This document shows positions 10,395-45,369 of a stretch of 64,000 bases of DNA, piece after piece. Source of the stretch: an uncultured Acidobacteriota bacterium (lineage in GTDB: Bacteria > Acidobacteriota > Vicinamibacteria > Vicinamibacterales > CAVVIG01); assembly GCA_963780685.1 (NCBI GenBank), contig CAWACZ010000017.1, positions 320,563-384,562 on the forward strand, given 5' to 3'. Position 1 is the stretch's first letter, and every line of letters starts with the position of its first letter. The position numbers were made by a program, and so were the translations under genes. The notes under the pieces are model-generated. The model was not told the DNA's origin, ran no database searches, and saw only the letters and a list, made by a program, of their open reading frames with translations.

Positions 10395-10940
10395 ATGCAG
10401 AAGAAACTCCTGATTGTTATTGCACTTGTGCTAGCGCCGGCTCTGCTCGTTGCGCAGAAGGTTTCCTACGACTTCGAGAAAGCTGCAAACTTTGCGGCTT
10501 TCAAGACTTATGCGCACAAGGACGGGACCAAAGTCGGGCAATCCCTGATCGACGATCGTATCGTCGCCGCCATCGAGACGGAGCTTAGCGCCAAGGGCTT
10601 CACGAAGTCGGAATCGAGTCCCGACGTGTTCGTCGTCTACCACGTGGCCTTCGACAAAGAGAAGGACATCTCGTCGTACAGCTCCGGCTATGCCGGCGGA
10701 TACGGTGCGTATGGCTGGGGTTGGGGCGGGGGTATGGGTACGACGACGACACAGGTGCGGGACATTCTGATCGGCACACTCGTGATCGACATGGCCGACG
10801 CGAAGAAGGGGCAGCTGGCCTGGCGCGGGATGGGAGTCAAGGAAGTCGACACGCAGGCCAAACCCGAAAAACGCGATAAGAGCATCAACAACGCGGTGAA
10901 GAAGATTTTCAAGAATTACCCGCCGAAGGTGAAGACGTAG
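10395..10940 (+). CDS. DUF4136-like secreted protein or lipoprotein
   Basis: Trimmed from ORF 9891..10940 to the ATG at 10395 (GGAAAGG upstream). Signal peptide MQKKLLIVIALVLAPALLVAQ. VSYDFEKAANFAAFKTYAH and PDVFVVYHV are typical of DUF4136. Confidence 0.65.
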   Translation: MQKKLLIVIALVLAPALLVAQKVSYDFEKAANFAAFKTYAHKDGTKVGQSLIDDRIVAAIETELSAKGFTKSESSPDVFVVYHVAFDKEKDISSYSSGYAGGYGAYGWGWGGGMGTTTTQVRDILIGTLVIDMADAKKGQLAWRGMGVKEVDTQAKPEKRDKSINNAVKKIFKNYPPKVKT

Positions 10941-11003
10941 GTCGAACGCCAGCCTGAGGGCTTGGAAGGGAAAGCCGAGGCCGCACGCCCGGAGACCGAA
11001 GCC

Positions 11004-12659
11004 TTATGGGAGCTTCGGCCGCGACAGCCCCAGTTTGGCCATACGCGTCTCGAGGGTGGTGGGCCTGAGCCCGAGTCGGTCTGCCGCCCCACCCGATCCG
11101 CGAATGCGCCAGCAAGTGCTCTCCAGGACGCTGCGGATATGCTCTTTCTCGACGTCCGTCAGCTTGACGCTGCGTTTTCCAGCAACAGGCGAGGGCGTCG
11201 GTACGGCAATGGTCAGCCGAGTGCCGGTCGTGACGATCATGGCGCGCTCCACGACATTGCGCAGCTCGCGAATGTTGCCTGGCCATGAATACGCTTGCAG
11301 CGCGGCCATACTCTCCCTGGGGATGGCCTCGATCCGTTTGCCGAACGCATTCGAGAATGCTTCGACGAAGCGCCACACGAGAATGGGGATGTCTTCGACG
11401 CGATCCCGTAGCGGAGGCACCATGATGGGGAAGACATTGAGCCGGTAGAACAAGTCCTCGCGAAACGCTCCGTCGGCGATCCGTTGCTCCAGATTCCGGT
11501 GCGTGGCCGCAATGATTCGCGTGTCCACGCGAATACTTTTTGGGCTGCCGAGCCTCTCGATTTGGCGCTCCTCGAGCACGCGTAGTAACTTGACCTGGGT
11601 TTCGACTGGCAGATCGCCGACCTCGTCGAGGAAGATGCTCGAGTGGTCCGCCAGCTCGAATCGTCCCACCTGACGGGCGAGGGCGCCTGTAAACGCGCCC
11701 TTCTCCCGGCCGAACAACTCGCTCTCCATGAGCGTGGAAGGAATCGCGGAGCAGTTCACGCGCACCATCGTGCGCCCGCGCCTCGCGCTCAGCTCATGGA
11801 TCTGCGCGGCAAAGAGCTCCTTGCCGGTTCCGGTCTCACCAAGCAGCAGCACCGTCGAGTCGGTGGCCGCCACCTGCTGCACCTGTTCCAGGACTCGGCG
11901 GACGGCTGCGGTCTCTCCGACGATGTTGCCGGTGCCAAGACGATCCTGGGCTTCGCGCCGGAGGTACAGGTTCTCGGCCCGCAACTGGTCGCGCAACCGT
12001 TCCACTTCCGCGAGCGTGTTTTGGAGCGCTTCGTCGCCTTGCCGGCGTGCCAGAACGTTCCCGAAGGCCGTGGCGAACACCCGAAGGCGATGCACCTCCT
12101 CCGGACGCCACGTGCGTTCCCGGCGCACCATGTTGAAGCCGACCGCGCCCACCACCCGGCCGTCAACGGACAGAGGCACCGTCACGGAGGACCTTGTGCC
12201 GAACGACTCGCACGCGGCGCGGTCGATTGGGTTCGGAATGTCATCGACCCTCGAGAAGCTCACCACGCCACCGGCGAGCAGGGTCTCGAGCGCCCACGGA
12301 AAGCGCTCCCTGGCCGAAGTCGGCGCCGCGACCGGCGCGATGCCAGGACTCTCCCAGCTCACCGGGGCCACCAGCATGCCGTCCGGCTGAATCCTGAAAA
12401 AAATACAGCCGTCGAGACCCAGGGCTTCGCCAATCTGTCGAAGGGCCGCTCGAATCGCTCCGTCGACCTGGTCGACGGGCAGGTTGATGAACTGCACCGA
12501 CAACTCGGCGACGACCCGCTCGAGCTCCAGTTGCCCCTGCAATCTGAGGTGGTTTGTCTCTTCGAGGTTGGGGAAGGACTCGGCAAGACGATGCAAGTGC
12601 TGGCGATCGAGCGCGATCTGACCAAATCGAGTCGCGGGCGATTCGGCTAACTCAGGCAT
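11004..12659 (-). CDS. sigma-54-dependent Fis-family transcriptional activator with GAF-like sensor domain
   Basis: N-terminal ~230 aa GAF-like region, [30 protein letters not shown] and WPGNIRELRNV. C-terminal HTH GGAADRLGLRPTTLETRMAKLGL. Confidence 0.9.
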   Translation of the reverse strand: MPELAESPATRFGQIALDRQHLHRLAESFPNLEETNHLRLQGQLELERVVAELSVQFINLPVDQVDGAIRAALRQIGEALGLDGCIFFRIQPDGMLVAPVSWESPGIAPVAAPTSARERFPWALETLLAGGVVSFSRVDDIPNPIDRAACESFGTRSSVTVPLSVDGRVVGAVGFNMVRRERTWRPEEVHRLRVFATAFGNVLARRQGDEALQNTLAEVERLRDQLRAENLYLRREAQDRLGTGNIVGETAAVRRVLEQVQQVAATDSTVLLLGETGTGKELFAAQIHELSARRGRTMVRVNCSAIPSTLMESELFGREKGAFTGALARQVGRFELADHSSIFLDEVGDLPVETQVKLLRVLEERQIERLGSPKSIRVDTRIIAATHRNLEQRIADGAFREDLFYRLNVFPIMVPPLRDRVEDIPILVWRFVEAFSNAFGKRIEAIPRESMAALQAYSWPGNIRELRNVVERAMIVTTGTRLTIAVPTPSPVAGKRSVKLTDVEKEHIRSVLESTCWRIRGSGGAADRLGLRPTTLETRMAKLGLSRPKLP

Positions 12660-19621: not shown

Positions 19622-20605
19622 TTACGGCACCGTCGTCCAGGAGGCATCAGGATTGTAAAGGTTCATGGCCCGGGCTGCGGTATCGGTTTCGGGCCCCAGA
19701 TCTTTCTCGCGCACGATGCCGTCTTGATTGATCAGGAAGGTCATGACTCCCGTGACGTCGTACTGTGCCGGCCACGCGACGAGCGCGAACCCGCCGGACA
19801 TCTCACCCTTACTCATATAGTCCTTGGCCCCGCCAGCCGCGGCGGGTCCCTGCGCGGTCAGGATTCTGAAGTAGTAACCGTGAAAGGGCGAGGGCTGCTG
19901 GCGATCGACGCTTGGCGCCCGGCCTTCTTCCGCCGCTTGTGCCACCAGGTCACCCAACGGACTGCGTTTACGACCGTGCGCGGTCGGCCAATACAGACCG
20001 TTCTGCCGTCCCGGATCGCTACGAAAGGTCTTCGCATAGAGGCCCGCAGGCTTTCCATCGTGTCCCGTCTTCGCGTAGATCCGTTGTGCGGCCGCGAAGG
20101 TACGGCAGATTCCGATCACCGCCAGCTCGTTGCGCCCGATGCGGCGGGCGAGCACTTCTTCCTTTCCCGCCGCAGTGTCGAACCGCCAGCCATTCCCGTC
20201 TTTCACAAGAGGAACTGGAAAGGGCCAGTTCTCGTTGCCGATGACGAGCGCCTTGGCGTTGGTCCCCTGGTCCACCAGCTTCCATCCCTCGGCGACGGCG
20301 ACCGTGAAGACCTCGCGATTCCTGCGGCCGGTCGCCTGATCGGACGAGGCGACCAGATCCCGCCCGTCAGGACCGAGGATTGCCAACAGCTCGTCCATGG
20401 TTCCCGTTTTGACGACCTCCGTCAGTGCTTTCACCGCGTCTTCCGGCGTTGCGAACATGCGCTGGCGCGGTTCCGAGGGAGTTCTGGTGCATGCCGGCAT
20501 CGCCACCAGTGTCGCGCAAATGACGGCGGCCAGATTGCGAGCCACGCGGCCGCGTGTTGTGCCAGGTCGATCTGTTGCCACGGCGGTCCTTATTACGTCC
20601 TTCAC
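19622..20605 (-). CDS. DUF2950-family protein
   Basis: WPFPVPLVKDGNGWRFDT, RIGRNELAVIGICRTFAAAQRIYA, GLYWPT, FHGYYFRILTAQG and GGFALVAWPAQYDVTGVMTF are hallmark DUF2950 stretches. Confidence 0.75.
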   Translation of the reverse strand: MKDVIRTAVATDRPGTTRGRVARNLAAVICATLVAMPACTRTPSEPRQRMFATPEDAVKALTEVVKTGTMDELLAILGPDGRDLVASSDQATGRRNREVFTVAVAEGWKLVDQGTNAKALVIGNENWPFPVPLVKDGNGWRFDTAAGKEEVLARRIGRNELAVIGICRTFAAAQRIYAKTGHDGKPAGLYAKTFRSDPGRQNGLYWPTAHGRKRSPLGDLVAQAAEEGRAPSVDRQQPSPFHGYYFRILTAQGPAAAGGAKDYMSKGEMSGGFALVAWPAQYDVTGVMTFLINQDGIVREKDLGPETDTAARAMNLYNPDASWTTVP

Positions 20606-20618
20606 ACCCCATTAGGGG

Positions 20619-21821
20619 TCAGCGGCGCCGCCCGCCCGAGCTGCTCCTGCTGCTTTTCCCGCGCGAGCTGGCCGCGCGTTCCGATTTTCCGCTCGAATAG
20701 CCCGAGAATGCATCTGAGCTGGTGCCGGATCGTTCGCGAGTGGCCTGAGTCTTGTCGCCACTGTACCCGCGTGATTCAGCGCTGGAGCCGCCCGAGCTCT
20801 TCGCCTGGGTCGCCCTGGCCTGGGCCTCGGTGCTCCGCTGCTCGCGCTGCGCCTGCGACTCGGGGCGGTTTTCCTGCCGGTTCTCCTGCCGATCGGTGCG
20901 CTGCTCTTGCGCCGTGCCCGCACGGTCGCCCCGTTCCTCTGCCACATCTTCGCGGCGCTCGCCCCGCTCCTCGGTCAGATCCTCGCGGTGGTCCTGCCAG
21001 TCATCTCGGGCATCCTCGCGGGCATCGGACCAGTCGTCCCACGCGTCGTCGTACATGTAGAAGCCGCCGTGCCACCCATAGGGACCGTAGTAGTAGTTGT
21101 TGTCCATCGCCGCGCCAATCGCGATGCCCGCCGTGAATCCGATCAAACCCGCCACGGCTGCATCGGTGCTACTGCTACTTTCCTGCTGGATCACCACCGT
21201 TGTCGAAGTGGGCTGGGTGTAAACGACCTGCGGGTTGTATTGCGGTACATAGACGACCTGCGGGTTGGCCGGCTCGATCACGATCACCTGCTGGCCACTC
21301 GACGTGGTCTTGGTCTCGACGTCCTGCTGCGGGGTGCTCTTCAGGGTTCCGGCGTTCCGGGCTTGAGTCCTCAGCCGCTGAATGCTGGCGAAGACACCGC
21401 TTCGATCGGTCGTGAACGCCTGCCCGAGGCGGGTCGTCCAATCCAGCTGCTCCGCCATCATGCTCACGACCTGGGGAAACAGAACCAGGGCGACGAAACT
21501 CGGGTCGAACCCCGATTTCGTCGCGGCATCCTGAAGGTCGGTGCCTTTCAGCGTCTGATTGCTTGCCAGCCATTCGTTGAGCGCGCCCACTTTCCCGGGA
21601 TTCGACGCGCACTGCAGCATCTGTGCGAGAAGCTGGTCCGGATAGAGAGCAATGGGCGCGAGCAGGCGATCGAGCGCGTCCGGCGTCAGGGCTGGCTTGG
21701 CGGCCTTCGGGGCGGGGGTTTGCGGCGCGGACTGTGCCCGCGCCCCCAATCCGCCCAGAAGCGCCGGATCAAGCGCAGCGAGGACGAGCATCACGTTGAC
21801 GGCAAGGATCAGCTTCTTCAT
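20619..21821 (-). CDS. DUF3300-family secreted protein with disordered Arg/Ser/Glu-rich tail
   Basis: Start set at the Met at 21821 (signal peptide MKKLILAVNVMLVLAAL). LDRLLAPIALYPDQLLAQMLQCASNPGKV is the DUF3300 signature. Tail ends SSGGRRR. Confidence 0.75.
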   Translation of the reverse strand: MKKLILAVNVMLVLAALDPALLGGLGARAQSAPQTPAPKAAKPALTPDALDRLLAPIALYPDQLLAQMLQCASNPGKVGALNEWLASNQTLKGTDLQDAATKSGFDPSFVALVLFPQVVSMMAEQLDWTTRLGQAFTTDRSGVFASIQRLRTQARNAGTLKSTPQQDVETKTTSSGQQVIVIEPANPQVVYVPQYNPQVVYTQPTSTTVVIQQESSSSTDAAVAGLIGFTAGIAIGAAMDNNYYYGPYGWHGGFYMYDDAWDDWSDAREDARDDWQDHREDLTEERGERREDVAEERGDRAGTAQEQRTDRQENRQENRPESQAQREQRSTEAQARATQAKSSGGSSAESRGYSGDKTQATRERSGTSSDAFSGYSSGKSERAASSRGKSSRSSSGGRRR

Positions 21822-21888
21822 GGTAGGTCCCCACCCACTGGTTGAGCTCGCTCCGAAGGATCGGCCGGTCGTGGCAGACCTGAGGGCA

Positions 21889-21905
21889 GAGCAAGGCACG
21901 TACCC
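21889..21905 (-). promoter_or_regulatory. candidate sigma-54 -24/-12 promoter of the DUF3300-DUF2950 pair
   Basis: Minus strand reads GGGTACGTGCCTTGCTC (GG-N10-GC, perfect TTGCT). Shares an identical 16-mer with 60935..60950. About 100 bp from palindrome copy 4 and ~58 nt upstream of the start at 21821. Confidence 0.45.
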
Positions 21906-22002
21906 GAGGCGCGACTGGATAGCGCGAAGTGAGAAGCGGCGCAATTCGAACAATTTGACGAGGGTTTAACCGCCGCCGCCAGGGTCGATATCATGACGTT
22001 AG

Positions 22003-22038
22003 CTCTCCCCGGCCGGAGTTTCCTCCGAATTGCCGGAT
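22003..22038. promoter_or_regulatory. tandem palindrome element, copy 4 (most degenerate, 4-nt spacer)
   Basis: CTCTCCCCGGCCGGAG tttc CTCCGAATTGCCGGAT. Confidence 0.3.
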
Positions 22039-22078
22039 GCTTGCACGCATTCCGCTCAGCGTACTGGTGTTCTCGAGA

Positions 22079-23446
22079 TCACCGACTCGCGGTGTCTATC
22101 TGCTTGTGGCAGTACTCGCAGTCGGCGCTAATCGTGGAGCCGTCCTGCGCCATATGCGAATCGTCGTGACACCGGAAGCAACCAGTTGCCGTGGTGTGGC
22201 CTCCGTTACTGGGATAGGCGCCCCAGCTCACCTTCATCGATGGAAACACGTTATGGCGATAGAGATCCTGAAGGGCTGACACGGTCCGAGCCACAGCCTC
22301 TGCATCGACGGGGCCGCCGCGGGATTGATAGAAGCCTCGCAGATCCTGATCGATCGCCCGTAGCCCCGCATCCTGACTGTCGTACGACGCCTTCACCAGG
22401 CGAACGCCTTCGCGCCGCGCGAATGGGAGATTCCGGCTGACCAGCGCAGCCGCGATGGCGCGGTCGACGGCCGACTCGGGCGTCGGTGAGATGGGATGGC
22501 CGACCGTATTGTGGCAGTCGATGCAGTCCATGGTTCGGCGATCGGCGGCCGCAAGCGCTTGATCCGTCGTGTCGGGAGCACGGTACTCCTTCACCTGGCC
22601 TCTGGCGTCGGTCACTTTCACGTACGGGATCGTTTCGCGCGCCGCATCTGTCGCCACGTACTCGACGCGGACGGCGGGATCGGCATGCCAGTGAATCGCG
22701 CGCGGCGAAGACGACGAGGCGCTCAGGTGCATCTGAAGCACGGTGATCGTCTCGGTGTTCCCTTCGTCATCGGCATACTCGCGGATCACGCGGATTCGAT
22801 CTCCGACAACCCGCCCGGGCTGATGGCACTTGGCGCAGGTTTGGGCTTGCGCGCCCGGAGGCATCTCCGCGCCGGCCGGAATCGGCCTTGGAAAGGAGTT
22901 GGTGGCGACGTGAACGAGCTGCCGCACGCCAGAAAGCTTGGCGCGGAGAAACCCGCGAGCACCTTCTCCGATGTGGCAGTCGACGCAGGCGACGCTGGAA
23001 TGCGATGCGTTTTGCAAAGCGGTGAACTGCGGATGCATCGGCGTGTGGCACGCCTGCCCGCAGAAGCCCGGCGACTCCATCCAGTGCAGGCTGCCGTAGC
23101 CCGCCAGTAAAACGATCAGGACGTTGACGGCAGTGAGAGCCAGGACGAGCAGCGAGGTTCGCCGGACCTCCGGCCGCCGGAAGTCCAGGACAGGCCAATC
23201 GACATCCGCATTCGGATCGCTCAGGAGCTTCCGCTGCTGCAGCCGCAGGCCGAGCGGGATGAGCAGCAGCCCGATCACGAAGAGGGCGGGAATGGCCACG
23301 AAGACAACCAGGCCCGCGTACGGGTTGTTGAGCCACCCCGCGAGGATCGCGATCACCAGGGTGAGGAACACCACGGCCGACGCCGTGGCCATCAGCGCGC
23401 CGATGATCGCGAGGGGATGGCGCAGGAGGGCTGCGCGTTGCGTCAC
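22079..23446 (-). CDS. membrane-anchored multihaem c-type cytochrome (NapC/NirT/ImcH-like; candidate quinol oxidoreductase)
   Basis: Three N-terminal TM helices. Five CXXCH motifs (CVDCH, CAKCH, CIDCH, CFRCH, CEYCH) plus an FCGQACH site. Last gene of the cytochrome cluster. Confidence 0.65.
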   Translation of the reverse strand: MTQRAALLRHPLAIIGALMATASAVVFLTLVIAILAGWLNNPYAGLVVFVAIPALFVIGLLLIPLGLRLQQRKLLSDPNADVDWPVLDFRRPEVRRTSLLVLALTAVNVLIVLLAGYGSLHWMESPGFCGQACHTPMHPQFTALQNASHSSVACVDCHIGEGARGFLRAKLSGVRQLVHVATNSFPRPIPAGAEMPPGAQAQTCAKCHQPGRVVGDRIRVIREYADDEGNTETITVLQMHLSASSSSPRAIHWHADPAVRVEYVATDAARETIPYVKVTDARGQVKEYRAPDTTDQALAAADRRTMDCIDCHNTVGHPISPTPESAVDRAIAAALVSRNLPFARREGVRLVKASYDSQDAGLRAIDQDLRGFYQSRGGPVDAEAVARTVSALQDLYRHNVFPSMKVSWGAYPSNGGHTTATGCFRCHDDSHMAQDGSTISADCEYCHKQIDTASR

Positions 23447-23455
23447 GGGGTCTCC

Positions 23456-23839
23456 CTATTTGAGACTCTGCATGTACGCCACCAAAGCATCAATGTCCGC
23501 GGCCGGCAGCTTGCTGTACTTGTCCTGCATGGGCGGCTTCTTGGTTGAGTTGGCCTTCGTGGCCGCCTCCTTGGGATGGGTGATCCATTGACGGATGTCG
23601 TCAGCCGAGCGCTTCGCACCAACGCCATCCAGCGGACTCGCTTTGCCGCCCTTGCCGGCGACGGAGTGGCAGACCTGGCATTTCTGCGCTGTGTAGACTT
23701 CCTCCCCTTTCTTGACCTGTGCGGCATCCTGGGCTGCCGCAGATCGTGATATCGCGACCCCTCCGGCGAGGGTCAGCGCTGCGGTGAACAGAATGCTTCT
23801 CGTCGTGAACGTCATCAGCATTGAAGCCTCCCAAGACAC
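23456..23839 (-). CDS. monohaem class-I c-type cytochrome, secreted
   Basis: Signal-peptide-like N-terminus, a single CQVCHS motif and a distal Met (PPMQDKY). About 110-120 aa depending on the start chosen. Confidence 0.75.
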   Translation of the reverse strand: MSWEASMLMTFTTRSILFTAALTLAGGVAISRSAAAQDAAQVKKGEEVYTAQKCQVCHSVAGKGGKASPLDGVGAKRSADDIRQWITHPKEAATKANSTKKPPMQDKYSKLPAADIDALVAYMQSLK

Positions 23840-23847
23840 AAGTTCGA

Positions 23848-26055
23848 CTACCAGAAGTATTTCAAACCGAACACGAAGGAGTTAACAGTATACGGACGGT
23901 AGACGTATCCCAGAACCAGCGAGCTGGGTTGGACGATGCTGTCGACGACGGTCGGATCGAATGCGAAGTCGTACACCCGGAACGGTTCGTAGAGGTAGGA
24001 GAACGTCGCAGCCAGTCGATTCGACAGCCGGTGCCGCACGTCGATGTGCAGCTGCTGCAGCTTGTTGAAGACGTTCGGGAGCTGTGATGGCGGGGGCAGG
24101 CCGCCCGGTCCCGGTACCACCGTATACAGATAGCTCCCTTCCGCGTGGCTGAAGTCGTACGACAACCGTGCCTCTGTCTTCGGTGTGATTCTAGGAGGCG
24201 TGACATAGATCGAGAAGTAGTTCACGGTCTCCGCGGCGTCGGCAGTCCAGTCGTGCAGCTGGTCGTTTGGGTCCTGGCCCGAGCCGGTCGACCGCGACCG
24301 CTGCAGGCCCGAGTAACGCTCGAAGTTATAACTACCGCCTGCGCCGAGACCGTTGGGCTCGCGGAAGTCGGCCGCGAACGACACCGTCCGGAACGTCGTC
24401 TCCTGCAGCCCGAGGCTGCTGTCGGGGAAGTCATCCTGGCCGACGCCGCCCGAGACGCTGAAGGTCCACCGGTCGTTGGGGACGAAATCGACGATCCCGG
24501 TGAACTGGTTGCGATTCCGGTCGGCGAGGTCGTAGTGGCGCAGGGCGGGCTGCTCGCCTATCTCCACGAGCAATGCTTCGTCCAGCCCCGAGCCGTTGCG
24601 ACTCCCGTACTCGTATTTGGCGTGGAAGGTCATCCACTGCGTCCCGACGGCATCCGCTGACAGTCGTAGAACATTTTCGCCCGTGCTCTCGAAGATCCGG
24701 AAGTCGTACCCGGTGTTGTTCCGCACGTAGCCGGCAGTCAGCGCCACAGCACCGAGGCCGCTCCACGTGGCATCGGCATCGAACGTCGTGCGATTGTGCG
24801 CGTAGAGCTCGGGACCGCTCGTCAGCGAGGTCCCGACGGAGGAGTCGTAGCTGACGAATTGCGTGATGACCGTGGCAGGCATCCGGTTGTTGTAATCGTA
24901 TTCCCGGAAGTGCGCCGTGAACTGCCAGTCGGTCTGCGGACGCGACACCAGATTCAAGTTGGTCGAGAAGACGTGAGCCTCGGCCTCCGCCGTGGTCCTC
25001 GGCAACCCGATCGGCGGCAGCGCGGCGTTGATAGTAAAGGGCTGCAGCGGCTCGTCGTTGTTCCAGAACCCGTAGGAGATGAATCCGGTCACCTGCGTAC
25101 GATGCGCGAGCTTGGCGTAGCCGGCGCCGCTGATGGTCTGCGCGGAGTTGGTCGGCCACAGCGCCATCCGGCCCCGGCCGGGCGCGCTCGTCGAGTCGTC
25201 CAGCCGGAGTGGACTGTCCCACACCAGCGTGTCGTCGAGGTTGTCGAACCACGAGCCGTTGTACGCGACCCGCAGCATGTTCCGGCTGTTCGACCATTCG
25301 GTGCCGATCGCGAAGTCGTTCGTCCGCGAGTCGTACGGCAAGGCCACCTCGACGTCGTTCGAGAACCCGAACGATCCGCCCCACGGTAGTTCGCCACGGT
25401 GCCGCGTCGTCGTGAATCCCGCCGTCACGTCAAGGTTGGGCGTCGGCGTCGCCCGGAAGTTCACGTTCCCGATGTCACGTTGCTCCCGGAGATCGAACTG
25501 CGAGGCGATCGGGATGTAGGCCGAGAGAGTCGCCTGCGCATTCTGAATCGCGCGCTGCGTCGCGTCGTCGAGGAAAAGAGGGCTGGGTGCGGGTGTGTAG
25601 GGAGTCTGGGTGTCGACGCTGTAGAACTGTGGGACCTCGTCCCACAGGCCGGAGACGACGAATCGGCCGGTGCGTTCGTAGTGACCGAAGTACCGCTGAT
25701 CGCGGTATCCGACGTTATCGGCCGTTCCCCGGAAGAGCCAGTTACCCGCCGGATCGTCACGTGCGTATTTCGCGTCAGTGAAGATCACGCCGTCCCTGAG
25801 GTCCTGGTATCGCTGCCATCGGGCCGGGTCTCCGTCCACGCTGGCCAACCGCCCGCCAAACTGGAATTGATTCCAGGTGGGCTCGAACAGGCTGCGCGTC
25901 GCCTCGGCGGTCGGCGAAGCGGTTTGCGGCGCCGCCTGGGCACCAGCCGTCGATGCGGGCGTGGCAGCCCCTTGCGTCACGGTCTGCGCCCCAACGGCCA
26001 CAGGCACCGCGACTCCAATCCAGCAGATCAGATGTACCAACAGGACACGGCGCAT
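23848..26055 (-). CDS. large outer-membrane beta-barrel, MtrB/PioB/MtoB-like
   Basis: Signal peptide, 735 aa, Tyr/Asp/Gly-rich alternating beta-strand pattern and C-terminal ...FGLKYFW. Sits immediately downstream of the periplasmic multihaem cytochrome, as in mtrAB/pioAB/mtoAB. Confidence 0.6.
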   Translation of the reverse strand: MRRVLLVHLICWIGVAVPVAVGAQTVTQGAATPASTAGAQAAPQTASPTAEATRSLFEPTWNQFQFGGRLASVDGDPARWQRYQDLRDGVIFTDAKYARDDPAGNWLFRGTADNVGYRDQRYFGHYERTGRFVVSGLWDEVPQFYSVDTQTPYTPAPSPLFLDDATQRAIQNAQATLSAYIPIASQFDLREQRDIGNVNFRATPTPNLDVTAGFTTTRHRGELPWGGSFGFSNDVEVALPYDSRTNDFAIGTEWSNSRNMLRVAYNGSWFDNLDDTLVWDSPLRLDDSTSAPGRGRMALWPTNSAQTISGAGYAKLAHRTQVTGFISYGFWNNDEPLQPFTINAALPPIGLPRTTAEAEAHVFSTNLNLVSRPQTDWQFTAHFREYDYNNRMPATVITQFVSYDSSVGTSLTSGPELYAHNRTTFDADATWSGLGAVALTAGYVRNNTGYDFRIFESTGENVLRLSADAVGTQWMTFHAKYEYGSRNGSGLDEALLVEIGEQPALRHYDLADRNRNQFTGIVDFVPNDRWTFSVSGGVGQDDFPDSSLGLQETTFRTVSFAADFREPNGLGAGGSYNFERYSGLQRSRSTGSGQDPNDQLHDWTADAAETVNYFSIYVTPPRITPKTEARLSYDFSHAEGSYLYTVVPGPGGLPPPSQLPNVFNKLQQLHIDVRHRLSNRLAATFSYLYEPFRVYDFAFDPTVVDSIVQPSSLVLGYVYRPYTVNSFVFGLKYFW

Positions 26056-26155
26056 CTGTACCTCCGAGTGCTAGCGCATGTAGAACTGTCCGGACGGATG
26101 GTTCGATCCGTGGATGTTCTGGTGGCAGTTCATGCACGATCGTCCGAACATCCGG

Positions 26156-27130
26156 TTACTTTTGTTCAGTGACGGCGTTGTTATCGTAGATGGTCGAGGG
26201 ATGCCTCGTCGCGATGTGGCATCGCTGGCAGAGCATCGGCATGCGGACGACGAGCATCCGGTCGTTCGAGGAGCCGTGCGGATCGTGGCACGTCGTGCAG
26301 TTCTCGCGGACCGGGGCGTGCTCCCACAGCGTCGGGCCGCGCATCTCGGCGTGGCAGCTGTAGCAGGTTTCGTTCACCGAGCTGCCGACTTTGAGCGCCT
26401 TCACATTGCTGATCGAGCCGTGGGGGTTGTGACACGACGAACACGACATCTTGCCCTCGCGGACGGGCATGTGCGCGACCGCGCGCTCCGTCTTGGCGGT
26501 CTGCAGGCGGTGACACGTCGCGCACAACTCGGTCTGAGTGCTCTTGACGAGCTGGCGTTCGAACGACTTCGGGCTGTGGACGCTGTGGCAGCTCGTGCAG
26601 GACAGGTCGCGGCGCTCGTGCGCGCTGCCTTCCCAGCCCGCGTGATCGCCGCGGTTGTGGCACGCCAGGCACGTCTGGTTCGACTCGGCCTGAGTGATCT
26701 GTCCGAACTTGCGAATGTTCCCTTTGTTGTCGTCGTCGACGTGCGCTTGCCCTGGCCCGTGGCAGCTCTCGCAGCCCTGCTTTGCCTCCGGAGAGCGTGG
26801 ATTCTTCGCCTGTGCGTGTGGCGTTCCCTTGAGCGAGTCGCCCTGGGTGTGACAGACGGTACACGTGTCACTACCGACGTAGCCCGCTTGCGGCGCGGCG
26901 GGTGCGGCCTGGGCGCTCGATGCCAGGGAGCTGGCGGCCGGTATCCGCCAATTCAGCCGATCAACTGCCGAGAGCGCGGAGTGCGCCGAAGTTCTTTCGC
27001 CAAAAATAGACTCTGCGCTGTCTGCGGTCTCAGCGTTGTACGTTGATTCACGAGAAATTCCACCGGTGGCGCGAACCGTAAACACCGCGACAAAAAGACA
27101 GGTCGCAGCTAGGCAGAGGCGGTTGTACAC
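26156..27130 (-). CDS. periplasmic multihaem c-type cytochrome, MtrA/MtoA/PioA/DmsE-like
   Basis: GTG start with an AGGAGGG SD and a signal peptide. Nine CXXCH motifs (CTVCH, CESCH, CLACH, CTSCH, CATCH, CSSCH, CYSCH, CTTCH, CQRCH) in ~230 aa. Confidence 0.75.
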   Translation of the reverse strand: MYNRLCLAATCLFVAVFTVRATGGISRESTYNAETADSAESIFGERTSAHSALSAVDRLNWRIPAASSLASSAQAAPAAPQAGYVGSDTCTVCHTQGDSLKGTPHAQAKNPRSPEAKQGCESCHGPGQAHVDDDNKGNIRKFGQITQAESNQTCLACHNRGDHAGWEGSAHERRDLSCTSCHSVHSPKSFERQLVKSTQTELCATCHRLQTAKTERAVAHMPVREGKMSCSSCHNPHGSISNVKALKVGSSVNETCYSCHAEMRGPTLWEHAPVRENCTTCHDPHGSSNDRMLVVRMPMLCQRCHIATRHPSTIYDNNAVTEQK

Positions 27131-27225
27131 GGTGACCCTCCTGAGCGCGAAGGACCGCGCGCTGCGCGTGAGCAGTGATGATACATCCAGTGAGCAGAAG
27201 TCTGGCTGAGCTCAGCACGGAGAAA

Positions 27226-27964
27226 TCAGCCGCGCTTCGACTCGTCCGAACCCTGGAACGTGCGACGGTTCGCCCCAAGAACGACTGCAAGAGCTCGTGC
27301 AAGCACACGAGTCTTCGCGTAGTGCACCGAGCCCGGAACGTAGGGGCTACGCCGCGCGACGTTCGTACCGGTGATCAGACCGCCGACCTTGGGGAATCGC
27401 GACGACGGGTCCGTCTTCGGGATGGGCGCCCGCACGTCGCGCGGTCCAACCCGCGGTGGGATGGGCAGTGACGGCGACGTGCCCCACGCGTCGGCGCTGG
27501 TGCGCCAGGATCACGAAGACGAAGAGGAGGCGGTACGCCGCCGTCGGTGAGGACGAGAAATCGGCGGCCATGATCTGGCCGACGTGATTCGCCAGGAATG
27601 TCCGCTACGTCTGGGACGGTCGCCGTCGAGGCCGGCTCATGTACTTGGCCACGGTGGCCTGACTGATGTCGATCCCGAGCTTCAGGAGTTCGCCGTGAAT
27701 GCGTGGTGCGCTCCACGGCGGATTCGAAGCGGACATCGTCCGAATCAAGGCGCGGACATCGCGGCGGGACGGTTGGGCGACCGGGGCGGTGTCGACCCTT
27801 CCAGGCCCTGTACCTGCGGAACCCCTGACGTGCCATGTCATCACGGTGTCGGGCTTGACCAGAACCAGGGCGGACCGCCAGTCGCGCCACATGCGCGAGA
27901 GCCAGACCCACACGAGGCGGTCATTGGCGGTCAGCGGCAGCCGCCGAGGCCGTGCCCGTTCCAA
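27226..27964 (-). mobile_element. decayed DDE/rve-type transposase gene (IS remnant): frameshifts, an in-frame stop, 3' truncation
   Basis: N-terminal part LTANDRLVWVWLSRMWRDWRSALVLVKPDTVMTWH...NPPWSAPRIHGELLKLGIDISQATVAKYM..PSQT, then TAG where homologues have Trp (SQTW-RTFL). Continuation RTFLANH...LLFVFVILAHQRRRVGHVAVTAHPTAGWTA. An internal segment (QGFRRYRAWKGRHRPGRPTVP) is in another frame. The catalytic C-terminus is mostly missing. Confidence 0.7.
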
Positions 27965-28222
27965 CCGTGGAGCTGGTGCCGCAACGCAAGCACCTCAAGC
28001 TGTAAGGCCGCGCGGGATCGGATCGAGCTGCGAATAGCAAACGGCAAGGGAATCAGCACCGACGTCATGGGCGAGAAGCGTATGCAGATGCGGAGATAAC
28101 ATCAATTGTCACAATTCGACGCGGATTTTCAGCAGGTACAAGTGCATGATCGGCTTGAGCTTCGCGCCAACTCATAGACCAAGGCCCGCCAACAGGCCGA
28201 GCGCTGGCATCGTGCCAGCACG

Positions 28223-29695
28223 GTGGAAACGCCCATGACACTGCCTGACCACAAAACCAAGATCGTCGCCACGATCGGACCGGCCTCGGAATCGCCGGCA
28301 ATGCTCGAACGCCTCATTCGCGCGGGGCTGAACATCGCGCGGCTCAACTTCTCGCACGGGGACTTTGCGGGCCACGCCGAGCACATCGTGCGCATCCGCG
28401 CGGCGGCGAAGGCCACCGGCCGGCGCGTCGCCATCATGGCCGACCTGCCGGGTCCCAAGATGCGGGTCGGCAAGATCGAGCCGGAGCCGATCCAGTTGCT
28501 TCCCGGCGAGAACTTCACGTTGACCACAGAAGACGTCGTCGGCAACCTGCGGCGGGTCTCGATGAGTTTCGATCGGCTGCCCCTTGTCGTGAAGCCGGGC
28601 GACAGGCTCTTTCTCAACGACGGCCTGGTGCAGCTGGTCGTGGAGGGCGTGGCGGGTAACGATGTCCAGTGCAAAGTCGCGGTCGGCGGCGAATTGCGCT
28701 CCAAGAAGGGTCTCAATCTGTCGGGCATCGATCTCGGCATCAGCGCGTTTACCGACCACGACCGTGCCTGCCTGGAATTTGCACTGAAGAATGGCGTGGA
28801 CGCCGTGAGCCAGTCGTTCGTGGAGACAGCCGCGGACATCGAAGCTGTGCGAGCAGCGGCAAAAGCCCTCGGCAGCCAGCCATTCATCATCGCCAAGATC
28901 GAGCGTGCCGATGCGCTCGAACACTTCGACGAAATTCTGAAAGCGAGCGACGGCATCATGGTGGCGCGCGGCGATCTCGGGGTGGAATTGCCGGTTGAGC
29001 AAATTGCCGTGATCCAAAAGCAGCTCATCTCGGGGGCCAGCCGTGTCGGCAAGCCGGTGATCACCGCCACTCAGATGCTCGAATCCATGATCACCAGCCG
29101 TCTGCCCACACGGGCCGAGTCCACCGATGTGGCCAACGCCATCCTGGACGGCACCGACTGCATCATGCTCTCGGGCGAGTCGGCAATGGGCAAGCATCCG
29201 GAGGAGGCGGTGATGATGCTTGCGAAAATCGCGGCTTATACCGAGGCGCACCGGCCGCCCACGTCGCTGAATCGTCTGAACGCGATGTCCAGCCAGCACC
29301 AGCCGGACACGGGGGCCGAAGCGATTGCGTCGGTGGTAAAGCACGCGCTGGCGACAACGCCGTTTGCCGCGGTATTCGTGCCCACAAGAACCGGCACCAC
29401 CGCGCGGATGATCTCGCGTTTCAATCCGGCGGTCTGGATTGTCGCCTTAAGCCGTGAGGCGTCGGTGTGCCAGGGGCTGGCTTTCTCCTACGGCGTGCAT
29501 CCGGTCCAAATCGCCCAGGAGCCGGAGAACTGGAGTGACTTTGCCCGACAGTGGCTCCGCGAATATCAGATCCCGGGCGTCCTGGCCATGCTGGTCGCCG
29601 GTCCGTCCACACGCAACCCGGACGCCAACCACCGGCTCGAATTCCTGCGTGTCGATGAACGACGCAGTGTGGCAACGACTGCACGAGCTGACTGA
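28223..29695 (+). CDS. pyk: pyruvate kinase
   Basis: KTKIVATIGPAS, NIARLNFSHG, MVARGDLGVE and a C-terminal regulatory domain. The true start may be ATG 28235 (MTLPDHKTKIV). Confidence 0.9.
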   Translation: METPMTLPDHKTKIVATIGPASESPAMLERLIRAGLNIARLNFSHGDFAGHAEHIVRIRAAAKATGRRVAIMADLPGPKMRVGKIEPEPIQLLPGENFTLTTEDVVGNLRRVSMSFDRLPLVVKPGDRLFLNDGLVQLVVEGVAGNDVQCKVAVGGELRSKKGLNLSGIDLGISAFTDHDRACLEFALKNGVDAVSQSFVETAADIEAVRAAAKALGSQPFIIAKIERADALEHFDEILKASDGIMVARGDLGVELPVEQIAVIQKQLISGASRVGKPVITATQMLESMITSRLPTRAESTDVANAILDGTDCIMLSGESAMGKHPEEAVMMLAKIAAYTEAHRPPTSLNRLNAMSSQHQPDTGAEAIASVVKHALATTPFAAVFVPTRTGTTARMISRFNPAVWIVALSREASVCQGLAFSYGVHPVQIAQEPENWSDFARQWLREYQIPGVLAMLVAGPSTRNPDANHRLEFLRVDERRSVATTARAD

Positions 29696-29726
29696 GAGCG
29701 CATTGCAAAATTGCCGGCGGGCTCTC

Positions 29727-29786
29727 GTAGCGCAGGCCTTCAGGCCTGCCAAAGTGCCGCCGGGCAGCCCTGAAGGGCTGCGCTAC
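29727..29786. repeat. REP-like structured palindromic element, copy 1
   Basis: GTAGCGC-[GCAGGCC ttca GGCCTGC]-linker-[GCAGCCC tgaa GGGCTGC]-GCGCTAC. Outer 7-bp stem enclosing two hairpins. Confidence 0.85.
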
Positions 29787-29851
29787 TGCACGAGCTGACT
29801 AAGTACGGAGTTTCATAATCGGCGGAAACGGCGGAAGCTGGGGAGTACACC

Positions 29852-30565
29852 ATGTCGAGCGACCCGCTTGGATCGCAGCGGAACCGTCACGTCAGCCTTT
29901 CAGACGAGGAAGCGGTCAAGGAGATCGTCGGAGCGGCCGTTCTCGACCTCTGGAAGGCCGTGAATAGTCTCACGCGGCTCCGGCCGTCGAAGCGGGACCG
30001 CTATCGTGTGGCAATTTTCGGATCGGCGCGCGCCCAGCCCGGTTCTTTCGTGTATGAGGAAGTGAAACGGGCGGCAACGGCGTTCTCGGTCATGGGATGC
30101 GACATCGTGACCGGCGGCGGACCCGGATTGATGCGGGCGGCCAACGAAGGCGCGAGCCTCGCGGGAACGACTGCGTCCATGGGCATTCGCGTGGATCTGC
30201 CGTTCGAGCAGGACGTGAATCCCTTTGTCGAGCGGGCCTTCGAGCACGAGACGTTCTTCACACGCCTGCATCATTTCGTGATCGCCTCGGATGCGTTCAT
30301 CGTCGTGCCGGGCGGCATCGGCACCGTACTCGAGACGCTCATGATCTGGCAGCTCCTCCAGGTGCGCCACGTGGACAACGTCCCGCTCATCCTGGTCGGC
30401 AAGATGTGGAAGGGCCTCGTCGAGTGGGCGAGGGCCAGCATGCTCGACCCGGGGCTGGCGCTCGCCAACGCCGAAGATCTTCAGATTCCCCGATGCCTGG
30501 AGACGGCCGATGAAGCGATCGCGTTGGTTCGCGATCTGCACGCGAGGTGGAAGGCGACGCAATAA
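29852..30565 (+). CDS. LOG/TIGR00730-family Rossmann-fold nucleotide-binding protein
   Basis: VAIFGSAR, TGGGPGLMRAANEGA and PGGIGTVLETLMIWQLLQ motifs. Confidence 0.8.
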   Translation: MSSDPLGSQRNRHVSLSDEEAVKEIVGAAVLDLWKAVNSLTRLRPSKRDRYRVAIFGSARAQPGSFVYEEVKRAATAFSVMGCDIVTGGGPGLMRAANEGASLAGTTASMGIRVDLPFEQDVNPFVERAFEHETFFTRLHHFVIASDAFIVVPGGIGTVLETLMIWQLLQVRHVDNVPLILVGKMWKGLVEWARASMLDPGLALANAEDLQIPRCLETADEAIALVRDLHARWKATQ

Positions 30566-30768
30566 GTGACGACGGCTTACCTGCCTGAGGCGAGTCTGAA
30601 CGCGCGCGGGTGCGACTCGCCCGGGAGCGCCACGGACCGCACAACTGGGGGCAAAAGTGTCACCCATGTGCCGGGGGCCGGAATACGGTGTTACCTGTGT
30701 CTCAGGGAGGACATGCGACCCGCATCATGGGGACCGGTGTGACTGGCTCGAGGCCACGGGGCCCTCGC

Positions 30769-31714
30769 ATGAAGATCGCCATCGTCGGTTGCGGCATGGT
30801 CGGTTCGGCCTCCGCGTACGCCCTCGTCATGCGCGGCGTGGGCCGGGAGATCCTGCTCGTGGATCTGAACCGCTCGCGCGCCGAGGCCGAGGCCAATGAC
30901 ATCCATCACGCGGTCCCGTTCTCACATCCCCTTACGGTCCGCGCGGGGGATTATGCGGACGTTGCCGGCGCGAGCGTAGTGGTCATCGCCGGGGGCGTGG
31001 CGCAGCAGCCGGGCGAGACGCGGCTGCAGCTTCTTCAGCGCAACGCAGACGTCTTCCGCGAGATTGTCCCCTCCGTGCTTCGCGTTGCGCCCGAGGCGGT
31101 GCTGCTCGTCGTCACCAACCCGGTGGACATCATGACGCATCTGGCGGCGAGCCTTGCTGTCAGATGTGGCGTGTCACACGCACGCGTGTTCGGTTCTGGC
31201 ACAACACTCGACACCGCGCGATTTCGTGCGCTGCTCGGTCGGCACTTTGGCGTGGACCCCCGTCACGTCCACGCGTACGTCATCGGTGAACATGGCGACT
31301 CGGAGGTGCTGGTCTGGTCGCAGGCCACCATCGCGGGCCTGCACCTGGACGAGTTCGCGAGGATCCAGGGCCAAACGCTCAGCGAGGCGGAGCGCAGCCA
31401 GATCGACGAGAATGTCCGTCGCGCGGCGTATCACATCATTGCGGGCAAGGGCGCGACGTACTACGGCATCGGGAGCGCTGTGGCGCACATCGTGGACGTG
31501 TTGCTGCACGACCAGCGGGCCATCCTCACGATTTGTTCACGCATCACGGCTGTGCCGGACTGCGACGGCCTGACGCTGGCCCTGCCGCACCTGGTTGGCG
31601 GCGATGGAGGTACTGGCGACCATTCCGCTGACGCTGGCCCCTGCCGAGCGCGAGGGGCTCCGTCGCAGCGCGGGCACGCTGCGCGAAGCCGTTGCATCGC
31701 TGAACTTGGCATGA
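30769..31714 (+). CDS. ldh: L-lactate dehydrogenase, frameshifted as assembled
   Basis: [21 protein letters not shown] and GEHGDSEV. After ...LPHLVGGDG the conserved C-terminus ([34 protein letters not shown], stop 31712-31714) continues in the +1 frame. One extra base lies near 31606-31610. Confidence 0.85.
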
Positions 31715-31896
31715 GCTGGTTGTTCCAATTGCAGGCGACCAACCGAACATAGCCGGCTCCGATGCTCCGGCCGTCGCTTATGCCACGGTGTATCCGATGC
31801 AGATGCTCCTGCGTGTTCTCTGCGCAGGTGCTGGCGCTGACCCTGATTCGATGAAGGGAATTTCGGCTAGAGCAAATCCCAGTTGGATGTAGCGGT

Positions 31897-40680: not shown

Positions 40681-40683
40681 GGT

Positions 40684-42795: not shown

Positions 42796-42838
42796 TGGTC
42801 TTGCTCCGATGTATTCCAGAGATCCCGAGAAACGCACA

Positions 42839-45217: not shown

Positions 45218-45369
45218 TTCCGGCTCTTTGGTCGCTACTGGCTTTGCCACGGCATTTCTCCAGTCAAAACCTGGTTGTTCTTCTGCGGCCTCGCGGCGCC
45301 GCATACCCTCGTGGTGACTTCAACGCTCCTGTTCGGCTTGCCGTCAATGACAGTGGGGCAGTCAGTCCC

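What the first reader, a model, noticed from the sequence alone, without database searches (positions are those of the whole stretch)
22079..27130. Complete porin-cytochrome electron conduit (MtrAB/MtoAB/PioAB-like) with monohaem and membrane-anchored multihaem partners
Four tightly spaced minus-strand genes make up the cluster:
- A secreted cytochrome with nine CXXCH motifs (26156..27130).
- A 735-aa outer-membrane beta-barrel ending in YFW (23848..26055).
- A monohaem class-I cytochrome c (23456..23839).
- A 3-TM cytochrome with five CXXCH motifs plus an FCGQACH site (22079..23446).

This component set matches the mtoA-mtoB-mtoD-cymA inventory known from neutrophilic Fe(II) oxidisers and the mtrAB/pioAB logic. 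It could move electrons across the outer membrane in either direction. Two points deserve attention. MtrA-type proteins usually have ten haems, whereas I count nine canonical motifs. The inner-membrane partner (455 aa, three TM helices) is much larger than CymA and looks more ImcH-like.
Basis: partly seen in the sequence, partly recalled or inferred. Interest (0 to 1): 0.7.

Follow-up and report, generated by a model that had tools for sequence, protein, structure and literature searches.

The report
Acidobacterial outer-membrane electron conduit operon
This is a real four-gene operon from a soil Acidobacterium (order Vicinamibacterales) for passing electrons across the cell envelope; the odd "nine-haem" count comes from a two-base gap in the sequence, and the unusual part is that its inner-membrane partner is a Geobacter-type ImcH cytochrome, not CymA.

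Summary

- **Nine haems is an artefact.** The window lacks 2 nt (between 26168 and 26169) that all 13 aligned orthologues have. The tenth motif ([19 protein letters not shown]) lies intact in the +1 frame, ending at TAG 26071-26073. Repaired, the 353-aa protein is 95% identical to a metagenomic decahaem and aligns end to end with MtrA (6R2Q_A). At least three housekeeping genes in the window (atpD, ackA, tal) also carry frame breaks, so assembly error is the likely cause.
- **The barrel is MtrB/PioB-type.** Pfam 2e-79, 26 predicted strands, best fold match MtrB.
- **The 455-aa cytochrome meets the published ImcH features.** Three TM helices, an invariant CX3CH next to TM3, five CXXCH, and E/K/Q at the spacing reported for Geobacter ImcH. 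It is not CymA-like.
- **The monohaem is not an MtoD orthologue.** It is a His/Met class-I cytochrome c.
- **The operon is conserved.** It occurs in about 22 of 27 Vicinamibacterales species genomes, and none has an MtrC-type surface cytochrome.

Direction of electron flow is unresolved, with a slight lean outward. The system is a known kind with a new module combination; interest is moderate.

The parts
26071..27130 (-). MtrA/MtoA/DmsE-family periplasmic decahaem cytochrome c gene. True extent is 353 codons once the 2-nt gap is restored; as assembled, the ORF stops at 26156 (324 aa, 9 CXXCH).
   Evidence: Repaired protein scores 262.5 bits on TIGR03508 covering profile 1-258/258. It aligns to residues 62-332 of MtrA 6R2Q_A (8.7e-69) and is 95% identical to P0149 (353 aa).
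26168..26169 (-). Site of the 2-nt gap (frame break) relative to 13 orthologues: ATCACGGTGAAC in relatives, GTCAC--TGAAC in the window.
   Evidence: DNA alignment; coordinates.
26122..26136 (-). Tenth haem-binding motif CMNCH, in the +1 frame relative to the called ORF. It lies within ...[29 protein letters not shown].
   Evidence: this segment is identical to the C-terminus of P0149.
26061..26065 (-). GGAGG ribosome-binding site, 5 nt upstream of the barrel ATG. It lies between the natural decahaem stop (TAG 26071-26073) and ATG 26055.
   Evidence: read directly from the sequence.
23848..26055 (-). MtrB/PioB-family outer-membrane beta-barrel (735 aa; signal peptide; 26 predicted strands; C-terminal YFW).
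   Evidence: PF11854 2e-79 over profile 21-635/635. 6R2Q_B sequence hit 4e-12. AF2 model pLDDT 70.7 with 26 long strands. Foldseek top hit 6R2Q_B, E 2.1e-25, TM 0.67/0.75.
23456..23839 (-). Periplasmic class-I monohaem cytochrome c (127 aa) with predicted His58/Met104 ligation.
   Evidence: PF00034 3.8e-13. In 19 orthologues CxxCH and Met104 (KKP-M) are invariant and His88 is variable.
22079..23446 (-). ImcH-family inner-membrane multihaem cytochrome (455 aa): three N-terminal TM helices, one CX3CH, five CXXCH, and a NapC/NirT-like region around TM3.
   Evidence: Published ImcH features from PMC6295460, PMC4251993 and bioRxiv 10.1101/2023.05.03.539133.
23045..23062 (-). Atypical CX3CH haem-1 motif (C129-G-Q-A-C133-H134) directly after TM3; the predicted quinol-site haem.
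   Evidence: Invariant in 26 homologues. Conserved in 31-59%-identical relatives. Aligns with NrfH haem 1.

Best explanation
A single operon encodes a complete trans-envelope electron path of the Mtr/Mto/Pio kind.

- **Inner membrane.** An ImcH-family multihaem cytochrome (three TM helices, with the quinol-site haem bound by CX3CH) exchanges electrons with the menaquinone pool.
- **Periplasm.** A dedicated His/Met class-I monohaem cytochrome c carries the electrons.
- **Outer membrane.** An MtrA-type decahaem threaded through a 26-strand MtrB/PioB barrel takes them across. Its last haem is exposed directly to extracellular redox species, because no MtrC-type surface cytochrome is present.

The decahaem gene is intact in the organism. 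The nine-haem product is an indel error of an error-prone assembly.

What is shown: the identity and architecture of all four proteins, the conserved operon, and the out-of-frame tenth haem. What is inferred: the physical wiring and the direction. I lean (about 55:35) towards outward flow, that is menaquinol to ImcH-like to cytochrome c to MtrA to a soluble or surface-accessible high-potential acceptor such as chelated Fe(III), Mn(III/IV) or humic quinones. The alternative is Mto-like uptake from Fe(II).
For: - All four family assignments are supported.
- Tenth haem out of frame: 2-nt gap versus 13 orthologues. All members inspected from the 90% cluster are full-length decahaems. The repaired protein is 95% identical to P0149 with no gaps.
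- Other frame breaks in the window fall in tal, atpD and ackA. Many long-read MAG loci show scattered frame breaks, whereas every short-read locus has a single-frame decahaem gene.
- ImcH features: 3 TM helices; invariant CX3CH, E124, K170 and Q176 at the same spacing as Geobacter E127/H137/K173/Q179; the family-wide pattern of CX3CH plus 5-6 CXXCH.
- Operon conservation: decahaem and barrel in 27/27 loci, ImcH-like in 23, monohaem in 20, and no other linked multihaem gene.
- Independent linkage: a 41%-identical ImcH-like gene lies next to a 22%-identical MtrB_PioB barrel and a 10-haem MtrA-like gene in another arrangement.
- Outward lean: the only characterised ImcH is a quinol oxidase. The cytochrome-c plus ImcH-like pair also occurs without MtrAB, which fits a general role of feeding periplasmic cytochromes from quinol.
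Against: - No experiment exists on any member of this operon, so direction cannot be read from sequence. MtoA/PioA do not form function-specific clades (PMC8805035).
- The lack of MtrC and the presence of a class-I monohaem cytochrome resemble the Mto/Pio oxidising systems. A His/Met cytochrome is usually high-potential, which would be an uphill step towards low-potential MtrA haems.
- I did not align the 455-aa protein directly with GSU3259, because no reference sequence was available. Source names for relatives say only 'NapC/NirT family'.
- The AF2 model of the ImcH-like protein is poor (pLDDT 58.5) and its fold search was uninformative.
- Whether the 2-nt gap is an error or a real mutation cannot be proven without reads.
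- NCBIfam TIGR03509 scores the barrel slightly below its cut-off (224.8 vs 240.05).
Confidence: 0.75

Rival explanations
1. Mto/Pio-like inward electron uptake. Extracellular Fe(II), or reduced humics or minerals, is oxidised at the exposed haem of the decahaem. Electrons pass to the His/Met monohaem cytochrome c and on to a terminal oxidase. The ImcH-like protein runs in reverse to reduce menaquinone, as proposed for CymA/MtoC in Sideroxydans.
For: - The component set parallels mtoA-mtoB-mtoD-cymA.
- No MtrC-type surface cytochrome occurs in the window or in any of the 27 loci.
- The monohaem's closest matches are high-potential respiratory cytochromes: CcoP, c551, c4 and bc1 cytochrome c subunits. 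Met104 is invariant.
Against: - ImcH is so far implicated only in quinol oxidation, and Geobacter ImcH is electroneutral with haems at -350 to -150 mV. Reverse flow from a high-potential cytochrome c to menaquinone would have no driving force.
- The monohaem is not an MtoD orthologue.
- Cultured Vicinamibacteria are known as aerobic heterotrophs (my own knowledge). The window's neighbours are heterotrophic or fermentative genes.
Confidence: 0.35
2. The frame break is real. This strain makes a C-terminally truncated nonahaem MtrA homologue (324 aa) lacking the outermost haem, meaning either a recently inactivated conduit or a functional nine-haem variant.
For: The sequence as given encodes exactly that. 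The gap is 2 nt and is not in a long homopolymer. Nonahaem MtrA-family proteins have been reported elsewhere (mtrA-DOMON, PMC8805035).
Against: - The 29 codons after the break are identical in protein to the 95%-identical relative P0149 and carry no stop, so there has been no decay.
- All inspected members of the 90% cluster and all short-read orthologues are decahaems.
- Essential atpD, and also ackA and tal, have frame breaks in the same 64 kb. This pattern matches the frame-break-ridden long-read MAG loci.
Confidence: 0.08
3. DmsEF-like use. The MtrAB-type module feeds an unlinked extracellular or outer-membrane terminal reductase or oxidase and does not react with metals or humics itself.
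For: The best curated family hit is the DmsE family. MtrAB-type cores are modular (PMC8805035).
Against: No DmsAB-type or other redox enzyme gene is linked in the window or in the 27 loci. Only the four genes are consistently conserved.
Confidence: 0.07

Closest known systems
MtrAB core of the Shewanella MtrCAB complex (PDB 6R2Q)
   Same: The decahaem aligns end to end with MtrA, including haem 10 after repair (8.7e-69). The barrel has 26 predicted strands and MtrB is its top fold match (TM 0.67/0.75). The two genes are adjacent in the order cytochrome then barrel.
   Different: No MtrC/OmcA surface decahaem in the window or the related loci. The inner-membrane partner is ImcH-type, not CymA. 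The barrel shares only about 16% identity with MtrB. The host is an Acidobacterium.
MtoAB-MtoD-CymA/MtoC cluster of Sideroxydans/Gallionella and PioAB(C) of Rhodopseudomonas
   Same: An MtrAB-type core without MtrC, clustered with a small periplasmic carrier and an inner-membrane quinone-interacting cytochrome.
   Different: The monohaem is His/Met and unrelated in sequence to bis-His MtoD. The inner-membrane protein is ImcH-family (3 TM, CX3CH plus 5 CXXCH, 455 aa). It is neither tetrahaem single-TM CymA nor CbcL-like MtoC. Gene order also differs: A-B-mono-ImcH.
ImcH (GSU3259) of Geobacter sulfurreducens
   Same: Three N-terminal TM helices; the first motif is CX3CH next to TM3; NapC/NirT similarity is limited to TM3 plus the first haems; Glu/Lys/Gln are conserved at -10/+36/+42 from the haem-1 His.
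   Different: Six haem motifs in total instead of seven, because the C-terminal haem is absent. Length is 455 aa versus about 507. Position +51 is Phe here, though Tyr in most relatives. Geobacter imcH is monocistronic, whereas here it is co-operonic with a class-I cytochrome c and MtrAB. A 2018 survey found no imcH adjacent to mtrAB/mtoAB.
Acidobacteriia (Bryobacterales) MtrCAB clusters, group 5 of Baker et al. 2022
   Same: An Mtr-type conduit in the phylum Acidobacteriota.
   Different: Those clusters include MtrC and a periplasmic tetrahaem and have no inner-membrane quinol oxidoreductase nearby. The Vicinamibacterales operon lacks MtrC and carries its own ImcH-like quinol module.

Membership tests
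MtrA/DmsE-family decahaem cytochrome c (TIGR03508) | Ten CXXCH haem-binding motifs | tested here: inconclusive
   As assembled there are 9 motifs. The tenth (CMNCH, 26122..26136) is present in the +1 frame, and restoring the 2 nt that all 13 orthologues have gives 10. Whether the gap is real needs reads.
MtrA/DmsE-family decahaem cytochrome c (TIGR03508) | Score above the curated cut-off with full-length profile coverage | tested here: met
   As assembled: 236.9 bits (cut-off 192.2), profile 1-234/258. Repaired: 262.5 bits, profile 1-258/258. Alignment to MtrA 6R2Q_A residues 62-332 at 8.7e-69.
MtrB/PioB outer-membrane barrel (PF11854 / TIGR03509) | Match to the family profile | tested here: met
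   Pfam PF11854: 268.3 bits (cut-off 23), profile 21-635/635. NCBIfam TIGR03509: 224.8 bits, just under its 240.05 cut-off. JGI and NCBI name close homologues MtrB/PioB family.
MtrB/PioB outer-membrane barrel (PF11854 / TIGR03509) | 26-strand barrel wide enough to sheathe a decahaem cytochrome | tested here: met
   The AF2 model has 26 long strands at strand pLDDT of about 85-95. Foldseek top hit is MtrB 6R2Q_B, E 2.1e-25, TM 0.67/0.75; the next hits are 22-strand TonB-dependent receptors at TM of about 0.35-0.4. The cytochrome-barrel complex itself was not modelled.
MtrB/PioB outer-membrane barrel (PF11854 / TIGR03509) | Encoded next to a decahaem MtrA-type gene | tested here: met
   Adjacent in the window and in all 26 related loci that extend upstream of the barrel; L016 starts inside the barrel gene.
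ImcH family (inner-membrane cytochrome H) | Three N-terminal transmembrane helices | tested here: met
   Hydrophobic segments at about 12-37, 44-67 and 97-117. AF2 helices at 11-35, 44-76 and 92-122 with pLDDT 67-83.
ImcH family (inner-membrane cytochrome H) | Atypical CX3CH motif directly after the TM domain, followed by 5-9 CX2CH | tested here: met
   CGQACH at 129-134 and five CXXCH. All are invariant in 26 homologues. Relatives at 31-59% identity carry CX3CH plus 5 or 6 CXXCH. Definition from PMC6295460 section 11 and PMC4251993.
ImcH family (inner-membrane cytochrome H) | NapC/NirT similarity restricted to the third TM helix and the first haem motifs | tested here: met
   PF03264 matches residues 97-185 only. 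NrfH 2J7A_C aligns with residues 100-213.
ImcH family (inner-membrane cytochrome H) | Conserved quinol-site residues (Geobacter E127, H137, K173, Q179, Y188) | tested here: met
   E124, H134, K170 and Q176 are invariant and at identical spacing. Position 185 is Phe in the window and Tyr in the family consensus.
ImcH family (inner-membrane cytochrome H) | Direct sequence or phylogenetic grouping with GSU3259 | not tested
   No reference sequence could be obtained. Names of relatives are generic ('NapC/NirT family').
CymA (NapC/NirT tetrahaem quinol dehydrogenase) | Single N-terminal TM helix and four haems in a protein of about 190 aa | tested here: not met
   The protein has 3 TM helices and 6 motifs in 455 aa. 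NrfH equivalog TIGR03153 scores 57.2 against a cut-off of 134.2, and TorC models score about 18.
MtoD (Sideroxydans periplasmic monohaem shuttle) | Class-I fold with bis-His haem ligation; sequence similarity to MtoD | tested here: not met
   The class-I fold is matched. However, only one His is conserved and Met104 is invariant across 19 orthologues. MtoD is bis-His (PMC4412085). No chain named MtoD appears among the 33 PDB sequence hits at E <= 1.
MtrC/OmcA surface decahaem | An extracellular multihaem lipoprotein encoded with mtrAB | tested here: not met
   No other ORF in the 64-kb window has two or more CXXCH. No further conserved multihaem gene occurs in the 27 loci.

The most novel reading that the evidence does not exclude
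The ImcH-like cytochrome and its dedicated class-I cytochrome c may form a widespread, non-bc1 quinol:cytochrome-c module. In Vicinamibacterales, an order whose close homologues of this operon are numerous in soil metagenomes, that module has been fused with an MtrC-less MtrAB core into a self-contained four-gene operon. This would give these supposedly aerobic heterotrophs a route to respire, or take up electrons from, extracellular Fe, Mn or humic substances. It would also make ImcH a partner of Mtr-type conduits, which a 2018 survey reported as never observed.
Probability: 0.35. Interest if true: 0.6.

Novelty: new variant of a known kind. Interest (0 to 1): 0.4.

Why it matters
Porin-cytochrome conduits are the main known route for bacteria to exchange electrons with minerals, humics and electrodes. 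This work shows a conserved, compact version in Vicinamibacterales, a soil Acidobacteriota order not known for metal respiration, wired through an ImcH-type quinol module and not through CymA.

If the operon is functional, it suggests that extracellular redox cycling of Fe, Mn or humics in ordinary soils may involve these organisms. It also gives a simple four-gene cassette to test ImcH-MtrA coupling. In practical terms, it is a warning that haem counts from long-read MAGs can be off because of indels.

Tried and rejected
- **AF2 model of the ImcH-like protein.** Confidence was low (pLDDT 58.5) and its Foldseek search gave no hit at E <= 0.001. I used it only for the TM helices and the segment layout.
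- **Profile search of the ImcH-like alignment against PDB.** It reached only NrfH, weakly (0.037).
- **Anchoring the family to GSU3259 by source names.** This failed; relatives are named only 'NapC/NirT family'. The look-up of encoding contigs did not find the window's own contig.
- **Promoter and terminator scan of 21800..27700.** It gave no more sites than shuffled sequence, so it says nothing about operon boundaries.
- **Homopolymer slip in the CAAAAG run next to the stop.** I considered and rejected this. The orthologue alignment places the gap 5 nt upstream, as a 2-nt loss.
- **Programmed frameshifting.** Rejected, because all relatives encode the protein in one frame.
- **A second multihaem or MtrC-like gene in the window or loci.** None found.
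- **Literature searches.** Vicinamibacter plus MtoA returned nothing. Searches combining ImcH with MtoA/MtoB or MtrB and Acidobacteri(ota) returned only listing-type papers.
- **Phylogenetic placement against MtoA/PioA/MtrA.** Not attempted. No reference sequences were available, and Baker et al. show these do not form function-specific clades.
Full report
**Observation.**
- 26156..27130: 324 aa, nine CXXCH.
- 23848..26055: 735 aa, ending YFW.
- 23456..23839: 127 aa, one CXXCH.
- 22079..23446: 455 aa, five CXXCH plus CGQACH.

The gaps between them are 100, 8 and 9 nt. All four hit curated families: DmsE-family decahaem TIGR03508 at 236.9 bits (cut-off 192.2); MtrB_PioB PF11854 at 2e-79 over almost the whole profile; Cytochrom_C PF00034 at 3.8e-13; and the NapC/NirT N-terminal region PF03264 at 8.5e-10, restricted to residues 97-185.

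**The nine-haem anomaly.** The DmsE profile match stopped at position 234 of 258. Translating the 100-nt 'intergenic gap' showed that the +1 frame encodes ...[29 protein letters not shown]. This is the tenth haem motif plus the distal-His region typical of the MtrA C-terminus. It ends at TAG 26071-26073 and is followed by GGAGG and the barrel ATG at 26055.

A DNA alignment with 13 orthologous loci places the lesion precisely. The relatives read ATCACGGTGAAC (or ACCGTG) where the window reads GTCAC--TGAAC, a 2-nt gap between 26168 and 26169. Restoring two bases has these effects:
- It gives a 353-aa protein that covers the DmsE profile 1-258/258 at 262.5 bits.
- The protein aligns with MtrA of the solved Mtr complex (6R2Q_A residues 62-332, 8.7e-69), including haem 10.
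- It is 95% identical, without gaps, to the metagenomic decahaem P0149.

The as-called 324-aa product sits in a 90%-identity cluster of 28 proteins. All seven members I inspected end in the full decahaem C-terminus; length differences among them lie at the N-terminus.

**Error or mutation?** The same 64 kb has split-profile frame breaks in three other genes:
- Transaldolase: profile 1-106 in one ORF and 152-284 in the next.
- ATP synthase beta: profile 1-38 and 31-213.
- Acetate kinase: profile 4-167 and 169-392.

In the related loci, every short-read assembly has the decahaem gene in one frame, whereas many long-read MAG loci show multiple frame breaks across all four genes. I conclude, at about 90%, that the gap is an assembly indel. 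Only reads can prove it.

**Source and conservation.** The barrel retrieved 27 loci from species-representative genomes, all Vicinamibacterales or Acidobacteriota MAGs. The order decahaem-barrel-monohaem-inner-membrane cytochrome is kept in about 22 of them. Clustering all ORFs across the loci shows only these four genes consistently linked: decahaem and barrel in 27, the membrane cytochrome in 23, the monohaem in 20. No other ORF with two or more CXXCH exists in the window, and no MtrC-like gene occurs in the loci.

**The barrel.** An AF2 model (pLDDT 70.7, about 85-95 in the strands) has 26 long strands. Its best structural match by a wide margin is MtrB: 6R2Q_B, E 2.1e-25, TM 0.67/0.75. The 22-strand TonB-dependent receptors that follow have TM of about 0.35-0.4. 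The complex itself was not modelled.

**The inner-membrane cytochrome.** It is not CymA-like. It has three N-terminal helices and six motifs in 455 aa, and it scores far below the NrfH and TorC equivalog cut-offs. The literature defines ImcH homologues by three features (PMC6295460, PMC4251993):
- Three TM helices.
- An atypical CX3CH next to the TM domain, followed by 5-9 CX2CH.
- NapC/NirT similarity limited to TM3 and the first haems.

All of these are met, and all six motifs are invariant in 26 homologues. In addition, the ImcH preprint names conserved quinol-site residues E127, H137, K173, Q179 and Y188. The window protein has invariant E124, H134, K170 and Q176, and Y/F185, at identical spacing.

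An exhaustive search found 3,396 representative clusters. These include full-length relatives at 31-48% identity and about 500 aa that carry CX3CH plus six CXXCH, the Geobacter pattern. I could not obtain GSU3259 itself, so a direct alignment remains undone.

**The monohaem.** It is a class-I cytochrome c. Across 19 orthologues the CxxCH and Met104 (KKP-M) are invariant and the only other His is variable, so the ligation is His/Met. MtoD is bis-His with a potential of +155 mV, and no MtoD chain appears among the PDB sequence hits. It therefore holds the same operon position as MtoD without being an orthologue.

The same cytochrome family (...DALVAYxQ[ST]LK) immediately precedes ImcH-like genes in divergent relatives, with or without an upstream barrel gene (L028, L030, L031, L033). 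The cytochrome c and the ImcH-like protein thus form a two-gene module.

Independently, a 41%-identical ImcH-like gene lies convergent to an MtrB_PioB barrel (22% identical to the window's) and a ten-haem MtrA-like gene in L032. This supports functional coupling of ImcH-like proteins with Mtr-type cores.

**Mechanism.** The shown facts support a trans-envelope path running from the menaquinone pool through the ImcH-like protein, the monohaem c and the decahaem in the barrel to the outside. Direction is inferred.
- For outward flow: the only characterised ImcH is an electroneutral quinol oxidase with low-potential haems. The cytochrome-c plus ImcH-like pair also exists without Mtr genes, which suggests a general role of feeding periplasmic cytochromes from quinol.
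- For inward flow: the absence of MtrC and a high-potential-type monohaem resemble Mto/Pio. Phylogeny cannot decide this.

I lean outward at about 55:35.

**Comparison and novelty.** MtrA/MtrB homologues in Acidobacteria have been reported, including Luteitalea pratensis, a member of the Vicinamibacteria (PMC5900883). MtrCAB occurs in Bryobacterales without a nearby quinol oxidoreductase. Public pipelines already label these proteins 'DmsE family decaheme' and 'MtrB/PioB family'. What I did not find described is an imcH-type gene co-operonic with mtrAB/mtoAB. The 2018 survey states that none was seen, and later searches found nothing. The system is therefore a new module combination of a known kind, of moderate interest.

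Noticed in passing
window 39604..39727, 57487..57623, 62455..62665 (also 53776..54171): Frame breaks split transaldolase/PGI, ATP synthase beta and acetate kinase into overlapping ORFs. The OSCP (ATP synthase delta) ORF covers only profile positions 75-172. This indicates an indel-prone assembly.
   Followed up: partly
window 39604..40680 (-): One ORF carries a complete RpiB domain (residues 3-141) followed by the N-terminal third of transaldolase (residues 158-276). This is either a real fusion or another indel that removed the rpiB stop codon.
   Followed up: no
window 27226..27994 (-): An integrase/transposase-like N-terminal fragment (…PWSAPRIHGELLKLGIDISQATVAKYM…) is spread over three reading frames directly upstream of the operon, with no Pfam hit. 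It is either a degraded IS element or a further casualty of indels.
   Followed up: partly
window 19622..21953 (-); L004, L006, L015, L017, L026, L027: A DUF3300 plus DUF2950 secreted-protein gene pair follows the operon on the same strand here and in six related loci. Any functional link is unknown.
   Followed up: partly
L001, L003, L011, L014, L021, L025, L027 (upstream, about 200..4000); L009, L012, L022, L024, L026: A pyruvate:ferredoxin oxidoreductase-like gene of about 1,200 aa lies upstream of the operon in seven loci. A 4Fe-4S (FdnH/NrfC-like) oxidoreductase cluster lies upstream in five others. Both are neighbours associated with anaerobic metabolism.
   Followed up: no
L001 12806..13551 and 10516..11292: The closest relative's locus has a second, partial copy of the monohaem gene (49% identity) plus the C-terminal 75 aa of the ImcH-like gene (72% identity). 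It also has a weak reverse-strand multihaem match.
   Followed up: no
L029 2889..6791: A seven-motif ImcH-like gene (507 aa) sits directly after a CbcL-like gene (multihaem plus Ni_hydr_CYTB, 667 aa) and small class-I cytochrome c genes. Two different quinol-oxidoreductase types are thus in one cluster, with an ECF sigma factor downstream.
   Followed up: no
L031 1312..3042; L033 1317..3045: The monohaem-c plus ImcH-like pair occurs with no barrel gene upstream; the neighbours are divergent DUF302 or Usp genes. The pair is therefore a module in its own right.
   Followed up: partly
window 28223..31752 and 37862..45304: The window carries pyruvate kinase, a LOG-family protein and an LDH/MDH-type dehydrogenase, and further along transketolase, phosphoketolase and RpiB/transaldolase-PGI. 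This is a heterotrophic, possibly fermentative, carbon-metabolism neighbourhood.
   Followed up: no
window 26880..27060 (-), residues about 24-85 of the decahaem: A variable, low-complexity linker (…SSAQAAPAAPQAG…) lies between the signal peptide and the first haem. Close relatives differ here by deletions of about 35 aa (P0144, P0146, P0148).
   Followed up: no
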